Shown piece after piece: positions 23,131 to 23,254 of a stretch of DNA of 64,000 nucleotides; the first letter of the stretch is position 1; the number at the start of each line of letters is the position of its first letter. A model generated the notes under the pieces. It did not search any database. It saw only the letters and a program-made list of their open reading frames with translations, and was not told the DNA's origin. The stretch lies in the IMG/VR virus record IMGVR_UViG_3300003320_000492, one strand, 5' to 3'. The translations under genes and the position numbers were made by a program. The DNA comes from a virus.

Positions 23131-23254
23131 CTAGACACGTCACTTTAAGTGCTCTACCATTGAGCTACGTCCCCAAGAAGTGGGGACGATTGGATTCGAA
23201 CCAATAACCACTCTCTTATCAGGAGAATTGTGAGAATTGCTGTTTGTGTCTAAG
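23131..23254 (-). repeat. ACAGCAAT-box cassette 2 (encloses the permuted tRNA-like gene)
   Basis: 5' arm CTTAGACAC-AA-ACAGCAAT and 3' arm GTGTCTAG. A second helix TCAC/GTGA lies next to the payload. Confidence 0.7.
23150..23227 (-). ncRNA. circularly permuted tRNA-like RNA (Ile-GAU-like; order 27-73, loop, 1-26)
   Basis: TTCTC-CTGATAA-GAGAG, TGGTT, ATTGG-TTCGAAT-CCAAT, CGTCCCC-A-CTTCTT-GGGGACG, TA, GCTC-AATGGTA-GAGC, A. Confidence 0.7.

What the first reader, a model, noticed from the sequence alone, without database searches (positions are those of the whole stretch)
23131..23254. Circularly permuted tRNA-like gene with a loop-closed acceptor stem
On the minus strand, nt 23227 down to 23150 contain every tRNA element but in the order 27-73 / loop / 1-26:
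- anticodon arm TTCTC-CTGATAA-GAGAG (GAU)
- variable loop TGGTT
- T-arm ATTGG-TTCGAAT-CCAAT
- acceptor 3' strand CGTCCCC and discriminator A
- 6-nt linker CTTCTT
- perfectly complementary acceptor 5' strand GGGGACG
- TA, D-arm GCTC-AATGGTA-GAGC, and A26

The sequences flanking the 26|27 breakpoint pair with each other (TTAGACAC with GTGTCTAG, and TCAC with GTGA).

There are two readings. (a) It is a genuinely permuted tRNA gene that must be circularised and re-cut. That mechanism is established only in a few algae and archaea, and I do not know of a phage or bacterial example. (b) It is a tRNA mimic with the topology of bacterial YrlA-type Y RNAs, in which the ends emerge near the anticodon side and the acceptor is closed. 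Reading (b) is attractive because a Ro60/TROVE gene lies 2 kb away on the same strand. A conventional tRNA-Ile(GAT) also exists at 31396-31469, so this copy is not needed for decoding.
Basis: partly seen in the sequence, partly recalled or inferred. Interest (0 to 1): 0.88.

Follow-up and report, generated by a model that had tools for sequence, protein, structure and literature searches.

The report
Permuted tRNA mimic: phage Y-like RNA
This is a gene for a small phage RNA folded like a complete tRNA whose two ends sit in the anticodon stem and are held by a conserved 'handle' helix; it belongs to a large, apparently unnamed family of RNAs encoded beside a Ro60-like protein in many phages.

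Summary
On the minus strand, 23253-23131 holds every tRNA element in permuted order, with a loop-closed acceptor stem and an 8-bp helix formed by the flanks.

It is not chance and not an assembly artefact. A covariance model found 120 homologues. 96% of cells are base-paired, against 60% in shuffles, and all six helices covary, as does the tertiary 15:48 pair. If the sequence is re-joined in silico at 28|29, ARAGORN calls it tRNA-Ile(GAU).

Reading (b), a Y-RNA-like tRNA mimic, is the better one, but this is not canonical YrlA:
- It scores 39 bits against a gathering score of 69.
- It lacks the GNCGAA motif.
- It keeps an intact anticodon arm.
- Its neighbour gene (25280-26755) is DUF2828/DUF7788, which has a Ro60 fold but no TROVE sequence match.

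The flanking helix plus an adjacent ACAGCAA motif is a shared handle. Six more RNAs in this window carry it, one of them enclosing a normal tRNA-Gln. The handle lies beside DUF2828 genes in FelixO1, LeBron, A511 and phages of staphylococci, Bacillus, cyanobacteria and rhizobia.

Neither Rfam 15 nor the searched literature describes the handle. Its function as a Ro-like-protein scaffold or decoy is inferred, not shown.

The parts
23131..23253 (-). Whole RNA gene, about 123 nt: handle plus a circularly permuted tRNA-like domain
   Evidence: Sequence. Covariance model R1 scores 114 bits, E = 3e-25. Orthologues are L001 9319-9442, L002 5336-5460, L027 6768-6892 and L003 7438-7551.
23246..23253 (-). 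P1, 5' strand (UUAGACAC) of the terminal 'handle' helix
   Evidence: It pairs with 23138-23131. All 7 modelled P1 pairs covary. P1 of 7 bp or more occurs in 83 of 112 pattern-only matches, against a mean of 9.2 when the 5' flanks are swapped.
23131..23138 (-). P1, 3' strand (GUGUCUAG)
   Evidence: The terminal U.G wobble fits only the minus-strand transcript.
23237..23243 (-). Conserved single-stranded motif ACAGCAA, 2 nt after P1; candidate protein-recognition site
   Evidence: CAGCAA was required by the search pattern, so only its context is informative. The preceding base is A in 63 of 83 cases. The motif recurs in handles with unrelated cargo next to DUF2828 genes.
23230..23233 (-). P2, 5' strand (UCAC); pairs with GUGA at 23143-23140; specific to this clade
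   Evidence: Window UCAC/GUGA, L001 AUAAC/GUUAU and L002/L027 UAAC/GUUA. P2 is not general in the family.
23140..23143 (-). P2, 3' strand (GUGA)
23211..23227 (-). Anticodon-arm equivalent: (UU)CUC-CUGAUAA-GAG(AG), with a 7-nt loop, U33, A37 and 'anticodon' GAU
   Evidence: The hairpin covaries. The loop is 7 nt in 80 of 116 sequences and mostly has the frame YU-NNN-RA. The anticodons are diverse.
23148..23149 (-). Nucleotides 27-28 (CU), which complete the anticodon stem by pairing with 42-43 (AG, 23212-23211)
   Evidence: In the unselected set of 116 CM hits both pairs covary: AU 32, GC 29, CG 26; and GC 44, UA 32, AU 14. Pair types are CU/AG, CG/CG, GG/CC and GU/AC. On the MAFFT alignment the pairs are 100% formed, but those 22 sequences had been chosen for having these pairs.
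23206..23210 (-). Variable loop UGGUU; U48 forms the Levitt pair with A15 (23160)
   Evidence: The 15:48 combinations are G:C in 55 and A:U in 40 of 116 sequences. This tertiary pair is not part of the model. On the MAFFT alignment it is 11 and 9 of 21.
23189..23205 (-). T arm AUUGG-UUCGAAU-CCAAU
23168..23188 (-). Acceptor stem closed by a loop: CGUCCCC, A-CUUCUU, GGGGACG
   Evidence: All 7 pairs covary. There is no CCA in this copy.
23150..23167 (-). U8-A9, D arm GCUC-AAUGGUA-GAGC, and A26
25280..26755 (-). Gene for a 491-aa Ro60-fold protein (Pfam DUF2828 + DUF7788, weak VWA); the presumed protein partner
   Evidence: Pfam. phrog_850 'RNA-binding protein'. AlphaFold2 model with pLDDT 84 and pTM 0.86. 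The top 10 Foldseek PDB hits are all Ro60/Rsr/phage Ro60, E from 2e-7 to 3e-5. 711 phage records encode relatives.
22908..23013 (-). Sibling handle RNA: GAGACAC..ACAGCAA..GUGUCUC; cargo is two hairpins, a T-arm-like hairpin and one further hairpin
   Evidence: R1 scores 34 bits. Orthologues are in L001 and L002.
23331..23418 (-). Sibling handle RNA (UUAGACCC..GGGUCUAG)
23649..23763 (-). Sibling handle RNA whose cargo is the normal-order tRNA-Gln(UUG) at 23736-23664
   Evidence: The arrangement is conserved in L001 8803-8924 and L002 4671-4786, with a compensatory P1 change (GCGC to GCAC).
27190..27255 (-). Sibling handle RNA (UUAGGCGC..GCGCCUAG)
27751..27818 (-). Sibling handle RNA (UUAGACACG..CGUGUCUAG)
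29305..29364 (-). Sibling handle RNA (UUAGGCAC..GUGCCUAG)

Best explanation
The locus encodes a stable non-coding RNA of about 123 nt that works like a Y RNA.

Shown:
- Its 5' and 3' ends pair into an 8-bp terminal helix (P1), which is followed on the 5' strand by the conserved motif ACAGCAA.
- Inside this handle sits a complete tRNA cloverleaf in circularly permuted order. It has an anticodon hairpin, a variable loop, a T arm, an acceptor stem closed by a 7-nt loop, and a D arm.
- The chain enters and leaves in the 5' strand of the anticodon stem, at 28|29.
- The fold is under selection, including the tertiary 15:48 pair.
- RNAs with this handle are encoded next to, and on the same strand as, a Ro60-fold DUF2828/DUF7788 gene in very distant phages.

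Inferred:
- The handle is the binding site of that Ro-like protein, by analogy with Ro60 binding the 5' strand of the Y RNA stem.
- The variable cargo is the effector module. Here the tRNA mimic would recruit, or act as a decoy for, a tRNA-binding factor such as a processing, modification or repair enzyme, or a host anticodon nuclease.
- In this phage the RNA is probably released from the long tRNA-cluster transcript by the tRNA-processing enzymes, because handle RNAs abut tRNAs at both ends.
- It does not decode.
For: Structure:
- Sequence as read.
- 120 homologues with 96.2% of cells paired, against 60% in shuffles and about 40% in slid controls. 26 of 28 pairs show compensatory changes.
- The same is seen on unfitted MAFFT alignments.
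- P1 survives the flank-swap control, 83 against 9.2.
- The Levitt pair covaries.
- Re-permuted sequences are called tRNA in 84 of 116 cases, and native-order sequences in 0 of 120.

Kinship with YrlA: sub-threshold Rfam YrlA matches at the window (39 bits), L002 (50), L003 (44), LeBron (40) and phiN3 (36).

Protein: it has a Ro60 fold.

Linkage:
- Strict handles lie on the gene's strand 65 times and on the opposite strand 11 times in 18 loci chosen by protein alone. In 14 of 16 lineages they lie within 2.5 kb of the gene.
- Loci chosen by RNA pattern alone carry the gene within 8-9 kb in 42 of 120 cases in IMG/VR and 48 of 120 in GTDB genomes.

Not decoding:
- The anticodon differs between orthologues.
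- The same handle carries plain hairpins.

Literature context:
- Chen 2014 (PMC4201824) describes the Y RNA / YrlA paradigm.
- The Bas63 preprint (PMC11482910) and the Listeria CKA15 paper (PMC12282133) speculate that such phages have Y RNAs, but neither defines any.
Against: - There are no expression, end-mapping or binding data for this uncultured phage.
- RNA binding has not been shown for any DUF2828 protein.
- The canonical Ro-binding motif (GGUCCGA / GNCGAA) is absent.
- Two T4-like phages with the gene (Vibrio nt-1, Aeromonas phiAS5) have no handle within 5 kb.
- 78 of 120 pattern-selected viral loci showed no DUF2828 gene in the stretch fetched. Those stretches are short pieces of contigs that are often 150-400 kb long.
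- In this window the handles sit 0-5 nt from tRNAs, which also fits a purely cis role in processing the tRNA array.
- The promoter and terminator scans gave no signal.
Confidence: 0.65

Rival explanations
1. It is a genuine permuted tRNA gene. The transcript would be circularised, or otherwise re-joined at the anticodon-stem ends, and re-cut at the acceptor loop to give a decoding tRNA-Ile(GAU).
For: All tRNA elements are present, and the re-permuted sequence is called tRNA-Ile by ARAGORN. The anticodon loop keeps 7 nt, U33 and A37. 17 of 116 relatives encode NCCA directly after the acceptor 3' strand, where about 1.8 are expected.
Against: - The anticodon is not conserved among orthologues: GAU, GAU, GAA, UUU.
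- This copy has no CCA.
- The flanks form an 8-bp helix, a 12-nt one-sided loop and a 4-bp helix, not a bulge-helix-bulge.
- The same flanks enclose hairpins that are not tRNA-like.
- A standard tRNA-Ile(GAU) exists at 31395-31469.
- From general knowledge: no splicing endonuclease pathway is known in bacteria or phages.
Confidence: 0.03
2. It is a two-piece tRNA-like RNP. RNase P would cut at G+1 in the acceptor loop and the 3' strand would be trimmed and given CCA, as reported for M. smegmatis YrlA. The result would be a nicked tRNA held together by the acceptor stem and the handle, possibly able to be aminoacylated. It would act as a decoy or substrate rather than a decoder.
For: NCCA is enriched in the acceptor loops of relatives, 17 of 116. 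Chen 2014 (PMC4201824) reports RNase P cleavage and CCA addition for M. smegmatis YrlA. The tRNA tertiary signature is complete.
Against: The window copy has the loop A-CUUCUU with no CCA. Acceptor loops are only 2-4 nt long in 27 of 116 relatives. There are no data on processing.
Confidence: 0.12
3. The handle elements are cis-acting spacer structures of the tRNA operon. They would act as processing guides, insulators or stabilisers for neighbouring tRNAs, with no functional tie to the Ro-like protein. On this view the tRNA-like cargo is a relic.
For: In the window the 3' ends of handles lie 4-5 nt upstream of tRNA +1, and their 5' ends directly follow tRNA 3' ends. One handle encloses a real tRNA-Gln.
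Against: - In LeBron, A511, the staphylococcal phage, L004 and L005, the handles stand in tandem right beside the DUF2828 gene with no adjacent tRNA. ARAGORN finds no tRNA at all in the LeBron locus.
- The gene linkage holds across phyla.
- The cargo fold, including tertiary pairs, is under purifying selection.
Confidence: 0.12
4. It is a canonical member of the YrlA family, bound by a canonical Rsr/Ro60.
For: Rfam YrlA is the only family that matches the element significantly.
Against: - The score is 39 bits against a gathering score of 69.
- The outer helices of the model are unpaired in the match (marked 'v').
- There is no GNCGAA motif.
- The anticodon hairpin is intact.
- The protein has no Pfam TROVE match and no sequence-level match to solved Ro60 structures.
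Confidence: 0.05
5. It is a decayed or rearranged tRNA pseudogene, or an assembly chimera.
For: None beyond the unusual order of elements.
Against: The same arrangement appears in independent metagenome assemblies and in isolate phage genomes. 116 distinct sequences carry compensatory changes in every helix.
Confidence: 0.01

Closest known systems
YrlA (Rfam RF02553; Chen et al. 2014, PMC4201824; the crystal structure by Wang et al. 2018 is cited from memory)
   Same: It is a tRNA mimic with a T arm, a D arm, a loop-closed acceptor stem and the 15:48 pair. The RNA ends emerge on the anticodon side. It is encoded within a few kb of a Ro-type protein on the same strand, and it is also found in phages.
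   Different: - The score is below the gathering score (39 against 69 bits).
- ACAGCAA replaces GNCGAAN0-1G.
- A full anticodon hairpin is retained, and the chain breaks inside the anticodon stem at 28|29.
- The partner is DUF2828/DUF7788 rather than TROVE.
- There are many sibling RNAs per genome that share the handle but carry other cargo.
Metazoan and Deinococcus Y RNAs (Ro60-bound; Yrn1 tethers Rsr to PNPase)
   Same: The architecture is modular: a terminal stem made from the 5' and 3' ends, a conserved motif on its 5' side, and a variable effector module. Several paralogues occur per genome.
   Different: The motif sequence is different. Neither the protein partner nor any effector has been shown. 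The cargo ranges from a 20-nt hairpin to a whole tRNA.
Thermus phage phiLo Ro60 with Yrl1/Yrl2 (PMC12135203)
   Same: A phage-encoded Ro60-fold protein with small RNAs encoded beside it. The solved structures 9KOP and 9L5Y are among the best fold matches to the window protein.
   Different: phiLo Ro60 is a recognisable TROVE protein. Its RNAs carry the CGAA motif and no tRNA-like domain is reported for them.
Circularly permuted tRNA genes of Cyanidioschyzon merolae and some other algae and archaea (from memory: Soma et al. 2007)
   Same: The 3' half of the tRNA lies upstream of the 5' half, joined across the acceptor ends.
   Different: Those genes are matured through a circular intermediate cut at a bulge-helix-bulge and yield essential decoding tRNAs. 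Here there is no bulge-helix-bulge, the anticodon is variable, and the flanks are a conserved handle shared with RNAs that are not tRNA-like.
Two-piece (permuted) tmRNA
   Same: The tRNA-like domain is permuted and the acceptor halves are in reversed gene order.
   Different: There is no tag reading frame and there are no pseudoknots. ARAGORN reports no tmRNA. Rfam tmRNA_permuted scores 17-24 bits against a gathering score of 47.

Membership tests
YrlA (RF02553) | Reaches the Rfam gathering score (69 bits) | tested here: not met
   39.0 bits, E = 8e-7 in a 1.1-kb scan. It is absent from the gathering-threshold scan of the window.
YrlA (RF02553) | tRNA-like module: T arm, D arm, acceptor stem closed by a loop, 15:48 tertiary pair | tested here: met
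YrlA (RF02553) | GNCGAAN0-1G motif near the 5' end (the proposed Rsr contact; Chen 2014) | tested here: not met
   The 5' region reads UUAGACACAAACAGCAAUUCUCAC and does not contain the motif. The family-wide motif is ACAGCAA.
YrlA (RF02553) | The anticodon-stem equivalent continues into the Ro-binding helix, with no anticodon loop | tested here: not met
   There is an intact hairpin with a 7-nt loop, and a composite 27-28/42-43 stem.
YrlA (RF02553) | Encoded within about 4 kb of a TROVE-domain Ro60 orthologue, on the same strand | tested here: inconclusive
   The gene lies 2,027 nt upstream on the same strand. It has a Ro60 fold by Foldseek but no Pfam TROVE match and no sequence match to solved Ro60 chains.
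YrlA (RF02553) | [quoted passage not shown] | not testable with these tools
   Needs biochemistry.
Y RNAs in the broad sense | Terminal helix formed by the 5' and 3' ends, carrying a conserved motif on the 5' strand side, plus a variable module | tested here: met
   P1 covaries and survives the flank-swap control. ACAGCAA lies next to P1 in RNAs with unrelated cargo.
Y RNAs in the broad sense | Genomic linkage to a Ro60-type protein | tested here: met
   65 handles on the gene's strand against 11 on the opposite strand. 14 of 16 lineages have a handle within 2.5 kb of the gene. 42 of 120 and 48 of 120 RNA-selected loci carry the gene.
Y RNAs in the broad sense | Physical association with the Ro60-type protein | not testable with these tools
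   Needs RIP, CLIP or EMSA.
Circularly permuted tRNA genes | The 3' half lies upstream of the 5' half, and re-permutation gives a canonical cloverleaf | tested here: met
   ARAGORN calls the re-joined window sequence tRNA-Ile(GAU). 84 of 116 relatives are called tRNA after re-joining, and 0 of 120 in native order.
Circularly permuted tRNA genes | Bulge-helix-bulge at the junction of leader and trailer, for the splicing endonuclease | tested here: not met
   The junction is an 8-bp helix, a 12-nt loop on the 5' side opposite 1 nt on the 3' side, and a 4-bp helix. The phage was not searched for an endonuclease.
Circularly permuted tRNA genes | Anticodon conserved among orthologues and needed for decoding | tested here: not met
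   The four nearest orthologues have GAU, GAU, GAA and UUU. 30 different triplets occur in the family. A standard tRNA-Ile(GAU) is present.
Two-piece tmRNA | Recognised by ARAGORN or Rfam tmRNA models; has a tag reading frame | tested here: not met
   ARAGORN finds no tmRNA. tmRNA_permuted scores 16.6 bits against a gathering score of 47.

The most novel reading that the evidence does not exclude
Phages with a DUF2828/DUF7788 Ro-like protein may run a modular RNA system. One universal handle (P1 + ACAGCAA) would load a whole repertoire of cargo RNAs onto the protein. The cargo includes complete tRNA mimics with different anticodon loops, some with an encoded CCA end, and even a genuine tRNA.

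The tRNA-shaped cargoes would serve as baits or decoys for host tRNA-targeting defence nucleases, or as guides that bring damaged tRNAs to repair or decay. This would explain why the Felixounavirus Ro-like protein counters a defence system, as a preprint reports (PMC11482910).
Probability: 0.25. Interest if true: 0.92.

Novelty: new variant of a known kind. Interest (0 to 1): 0.8.

Why it matters
Ro60 and Y RNAs are conserved from bacteria to humans, and what they do is still only partly understood.

DUF2828/DUF7788 proteins are encoded in 711 of 50,697 GenBank phage records. These include model and therapeutic phages: FelixO1 and Bas63-like phages, A511 and P100-like phages, cluster L mycobacteriophages, and staphylococcal, enterococcal, campylobacter and vibrio phages. 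No RNA partner had been defined for them in Rfam 15 or in the literature I could search. Two recent papers only guessed that 'some tRNA genes may be Y RNAs'.

The handle found here gives a simple, testable signature for those partners. It shows that they are numerous and modular. It also shows that the tRNA-like ones mimic the whole tRNA, anticodon loop included, which points to an interaction with factors that read anticodon loops.

Cultured phages carry the same elements at known coordinates, so the question can be tested directly by RIP-seq, EMSA and deletion on defence-carrying hosts.

For annotation, these RNAs are currently unannotated, mis-called as tiny ORFs, or listed as pseudo-tRNAs.

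Tried and rejected
- Megablast of 22000-27000 against GenBank phages found nothing. Relatives had to be reached through the protein and through a DNA pattern.
- Sequence searches of the protein and of its family profile against PDB chains found no Ro60. Only the fold comparison did.
- The promoter and terminator scan of 22700-27300 found no more sites than shuffles do.
- The 433-aa ORF between the Ro-like gene and the RNA cluster (23775-25076) was considered as a partner and rejected. It has a signal peptide, a Pro/Thr-rich linker and a C-terminal region of unidentified fold. It has no family match and is present only in the closest relatives.
- The downstream 'exonuclease' (21977-22807) was considered as an effector, by analogy with PNPase, and rejected. 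It has only a weak PD-(D/E)XK similarity, which suggests a DNA nuclease, and it is conserved only in close relatives.
- My first loose handle scanner finds about 9 chance hits per 64 kb in shuffles. I therefore used stricter criteria, strand asymmetry and flank-swap controls instead.
- The minimum-free-energy fold pairs GAGAG with the upstream copy of AAUUCUC. Comparative data favour the proximal hairpin with the 7-nt loop.
- The supplementary tables of Chen 2014 and the 2020 Annual Review were not available. I therefore could not check whether any DUF2828 phage was among the 22 phages in that study. Its search was restricted to genomes annotated with TROVE proteins.
- The two T4-like phages were examined for handles. 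None was found, only odd tRNA-like arrays.
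Full report
**1. The observation**

The window is part of a tailed-phage genome. It encodes a large terminase, a DNA polymerase, a primase and a ribonucleotide reductase. It also has an unusually large tRNA complement: ARAGORN finds 32 tRNAs, all on the minus strand.

- an anticodon-type hairpin, UUCUC-CUGAUAA-GAGAG
- UGGUU
- a T arm, AUUGG-UUCGAAU-CCAAU
- CGUCCCC, then A, then a 6-nt linker
- the perfectly complementary GGGGACG
- UA
- a D arm, GCUC-AAUGGUA-GAGC
- A26

The flanks pair: UUAGACAC with GUGUCUAG, which I call P1, and UCAC with GUGA, which I call P2. The conventional tRNA-Ile(GAU) at 31395-31469 is real.

Neither ARAGORN nor Rfam's tRNA model recognises the element in its native order. 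If the two parts are re-joined in silico, ARAGORN calls it tRNA-Ile(GAU). 'Circularly permuted tRNA-like gene' is therefore an accurate description of the sequence.

**2. It is real and under selection**

Of all 4,227 Rfam families, only YrlA, the bacterial tRNA-like Y RNA, matches the element with any significance. The match is 39 bits, E = 8e-7 in a 1.1-kb scan, which is well below the family's gathering score of 69.

Loci encoding close relatives of the neighbouring protein carry an orthologous RNA downstream of the gene. These are L001, L002 and L007, and also L003, whose protein is only 47% identical.

A DNA pattern built from three conserved blocks was run against IMG/VR. 83 of 112 complete matches have a helix of 7 bp or more joining the flanks at the expected place. 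When the 5' flanks are swapped between elements the mean is 9.2 and the maximum 15.

I built a covariance model from 22 of these sequences. It found 120 matches with E below 1e-8 in 100 loci. On that alignment:
- 96.2% of cells form standard pairs, against 60% in column shuffles and 38-45% when partners are slid.
- 26 of 28 pairs show compensatory changes.
- Each of the six helices covaries.

That alignment is fitted to the model, so I repeated the count on plain MAFFT alignments:
- RNAalifold on ten orthologues independently recovers P1, the anticodon hairpin, the T arm, the closed acceptor and the D arm.
- My structure on the 22-sequence MAFFT alignment gives 96.1% paired, against 66% in shuffles and at most 42% when slid. 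A caveat applies: those 22 sequences had been chosen for having the anticodon hairpin and the 27-28/42-43 pairs, so only the other helices are unbiased in that test.

The tertiary Levitt pair is not part of any model, yet it covaries: G15:C48 in 55 and A15:U48 in 40 of 116 sequences. This points to a genuine L-shaped tRNA fold. An assembly chimera or a pseudogene is excluded.

**3. Anatomy, refined**

The break in the tRNA is not at 26|27 but inside the anticodon stem. The two nucleotides after A26 are CU (23149-23148). They pair with the two nucleotides after the hairpin's 3' strand, AG (23212-23211). Across the family this pair changes in a compensatory way, through CU/AG, CG/CG, GG/CC and GU/AC, and in some members it is three pairs long.

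The domain is therefore a complete cloverleaf with a nick in the 5' strand of the anticodon stem, at 28|29. Through that nick the chain runs out to P2 and P1.

The anticodon-type loop is 7 nt long in 80 of 116 members, mostly with the frame Y-U-NNN-R-A. The 'anticodon' itself is free to vary: there are 30 different triplets, and the four nearest orthologues have GAU, GAU, GAA and UUU.

Acceptor loops are 2-34 nt long. In 17 of 116 members the loop begins with NCCA, where about 1.8 are expected. The window copy has A-CUUCUU.

**4. The flanks are a shared handle**

P1 is followed after 1-3 nt by ACAGCAA. A search for that arrangement found six more elements in the window. All are on the minus strand and all lie within 3.6 kb of the protein gene:
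- 29364-29305
- 27818-27751
- 27255-27190
- 23763-23649
- 23418-23331
- 23013-22908

The sequence of P1 differs between copies in a compensatory way: ACAC/GUGU, ACCC/GGGU, GCGC/GCGC and GCAC/GUGC. Their cargo is unrelated to the target's. It includes plain hairpins, a T-arm-like hairpin and, at 23763-23649, the ordinary tRNA-Gln(UUG). That last arrangement is conserved in L001 and L002, with a compensatory P1 change.

Rfam has no family for these elements.

**5. The neighbour gene**

ORF 25280-26755 (minus strand, 491 aa) lies 2,027 nt upstream.
- It matches Pfam DUF2828 and DUF7788, with a weak VWA hit, but not TROVE.
- It falls in PHROG 850, 'RNA-binding protein'.
- Sequence and profile searches against PDB chains find no Ro60.
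- An AlphaFold2 model (pLDDT 84, pTM 0.86) has Ro60 structures as its ten best PDB matches. These are Xenopus and human Ro60, Deinococcus Rsr and Thermus phage phiLo Ro60. The alignments run the full length, with E from 2e-7 to 3e-5, TM-scores of 0.33-0.56 and 11-14% identity.

'Ro60-like' is therefore right at the level of fold, and 'TROVE' is not supported at the level of sequence. Relatives are encoded in 711 GenBank phage records across many host phyla, often annotated 'Ro-like RNA binding protein'.

**6. Linkage of handle and gene**

I took 18 loci chosen through the protein alone. A strict handle definition gave 65 elements on the gene's strand and 11 on the other strand. Nearly all of the 65 lie within 2.7 kb of the gene.

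Handles stand directly beside the gene in:
- Mycobacterium phage LeBron (three, one of them tRNA-like)
- Salmonella phage FelixO1 (four, one tRNA-like)
- Listeria phage A511 (three)
- a staphylococcal phage (three)
- Bacillus phage PJN02 (five, one tRNA-like)
- Synechococcus phage B3
- Sinorhizobium phage phiN3 (stems of 14-21 bp, one tRNA-like)
- a Fusobacterium phage
- several uncultured phages

The exceptions are two T4-like phages, Vibrio nt-1 and Aeromonas phiAS5.

The converse also holds. Of loci chosen only by the RNA pattern, 42 of 120 in IMG/VR and 48 of 120 in GTDB genomes and MAGs contain a DUF2828-type gene within the 8-9 kb fetched. No other protein gene is shared by these neighbourhoods.

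**7. How it most likely works**

Shown:
- a structured RNA with a tRNA-shaped domain
- a conserved handle
- tight genomic linkage to a Ro60-fold protein

Inferred, by analogy with the Ro60/Y RNA paradigm:
- In that paradigm Ro60 binds the 5' strand of the Y RNA stem and the rest of the RNA tethers an effector (Chen 2014, PMC4201824; phiLo Ro60-Yrl-PNPase, PMC12135203). By analogy, the handle binds the DUF2828 protein and the cargo determines what is recruited or sequestered.
- The anticodon loop is conserved in shape but not in sequence. This suggests partners that recognise tRNA anticodon arms in general, such as processing, modification or repair enzymes or anticodon nucleases. It does not suggest decoding. 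From general knowledge, a helix and a 55-kDa protein attached to the anticodon stem would not fit in the ribosome.
- In this window the 3' ends of handles lie 4-5 nt before tRNA +1, and their 5' ends follow tRNA 3' ends. RNase P and the tRNA 3'-processing enzymes probably release these RNAs from the cluster transcript.

Circumstantial support from the literature:
- The Felixounavirus Bas63 Ro60-like gp130 counters the Ppl defence system. The authors guessed that some downstream 'tRNAs' are Y RNAs (PMC11482910).
- A study of the P100-like Listeria phage CKA15 found three very abundant non-coding transcripts within 2 kb upstream of its Rsr-like gene and raised the same idea (PMC12282133).
- LeBron gp53 is toxic when overexpressed, and LeBron also encodes an RNA ligase and a polynucleotide kinase (PMC13148394).

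None of these papers defines the RNAs.

**8. Comparison with what is known, and novelty**

The element works like a YrlA-type Y RNA but fails the membership tests for that family: the gathering score, the GNCGAA motif, the absence of an anticodon loop, and a TROVE partner.

It shares gene order with the permuted tRNA genes of algae and archaea, but not their junction structure or their decoding role.

Five searches of the held literature and Rfam 15 gave no description of the ACAGCAA handle, of RNA partners for DUF2828 proteins, or of tRNA mimics with an intact anticodon arm in this context. I cannot exclude a description in papers that are not held.

I therefore class it as a new variant of a known kind.

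**9. Limits**

- There are no expression or binding data.
- The association statistics come from capped scans and short fetched stretches.
- The 22-sequence seed was partly selected on two of the helices it was then used to test.
- The exception of the T4-like phages is unexplained.

Noticed in passing
window 23649-23763 (-): An ordinary, well-scoring tRNA-Gln(UUG) (23736-23664; Rfam 59.8 bits) sits inside a handle: UUAGGCGC-UA-ACAGCAA ... GCGCCUAG. The arrangement is conserved in L001 8803-8924 and L002 4671-4786, with a compensatory P1 change. A second tRNA-Gln(UUG) without a handle is at 27499-27571.
   Followed up: partly
window 22908-23013, 23331-23418, 27190-27255, 27751-27818, 29305-29364 (all -): Five further handle RNAs with cargo that is not tRNA-like. 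Their 3' ends lie 4-5 nt before the next tRNA's +1, and some 5' ends directly follow a tRNA 3' end.
   Followed up: partly
window 23254-23323 (-): ARAGORN calls a 70-nt tRNA-Tyr(GUA) here, ending exactly where the target's P1 begins. Rfam's tRNA model does not reach its threshold (17 bits for an overlapping stretch). L001 and L002 have a related Tyr-like gene with a long variable arm and an odd D region at the same place.
   Followed up: partly
window 43651-43723 (-): Rfam tRNA match (33.5 bits, just above the gathering score) that ARAGORN does not report.
   Followed up: no
window 22951-23086 (-): Sub-threshold match to Rfam Polynucleobacter-1 RNA (31.1 bits; gathering score 37; E = 1e-4). 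It spans tRNA-Met and the start of the next handle RNA. The matched hairpin AUCCUUUAGGAUAAA recurs as AUCCUUUGGAUAAA in a handle RNA of Sinorhizobium phage phiN3 (L022 2983-3076). Polynucleobacter-1 may be related to one cargo type.
   Followed up: no
L016 2507-3058 (Listeria phage A511, record about 26196-26747): ROOL RNA-like match (87.5 bits; gathering score 99.1) about 1 kb upstream of the Ro-like gene. Its record coordinates nearly coincide with the most heavily transcribed 'non-coding' region reported for the related phage CKA15 (26,236-26,727; PMC12282133). That abundant RNA is therefore probably a ROOL homologue rather than a Y RNA.
   Followed up: partly
L021 8740-9200 (Aeromonas phage phiAS5): An unannotated 470-nt gap about 2.3 kb downstream of the DUF2828 gene holds unusual tRNA-like arrays. 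One is a tRNA-Ala call with a second T-arm-like hairpin nested before the acceptor 3' strand. There is also an ACAGCAU next to another tRNA-like unit. No standard handle is present.
   Followed up: no
A3 alignment (family-wide): 17 of 116 tRNA-like handle RNAs encode NCCA immediately after the acceptor 3' strand, inside the closing loop, where about 1.8 are expected. This hints that some members are cut there and expose a CCA end.
   Followed up: partly
window 23223-23236 (-): AAUUCUC occurs twice in tandem (23236-23230 and 23229-23223). The thermodynamic fold pairs GAGAG with the distal copy, while comparative data support the proximal one. An alternative pairing or switch is possible.
   Followed up: no
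window 23095-23119 (-): A 9-bp hairpin (UCUCAUUGU-CCUUUAA-ACAAUGAGA) lies between the target RNA and tRNA-Met. L001 has a different, longer hairpin at the same place.
   Followed up: no
window 23775-25076 (-): A 433-aa ORF between the Ro-like gene and the RNA cluster. It has an N-terminal signal or transmembrane segment, a Pro/Thr-rich linker and a C-terminal region of unidentified fold. It has no family match, is present only in the closest relatives, and looks like a secreted or surface protein inserted into the tRNA region.
   Followed up: partly
L144-L263 (GTDB genomes and MAGs): The tRNA-like handle RNA together with the DUF2828 gene also occurs in bacterial assemblies, for example a Mycolicibacterium sp. 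S2-37 1.5-Mb scaffold, Roseburia hominis and Treponema bryantii. These are presumably prophages or co-binned phage contigs.
   Followed up: partly
literature (PMC12282133): The Ro-like protein of Listeria phage CKA15 was detected in purified virions (20 peptides, 57% coverage), although it is encoded outside the structural module.
   Followed up: no
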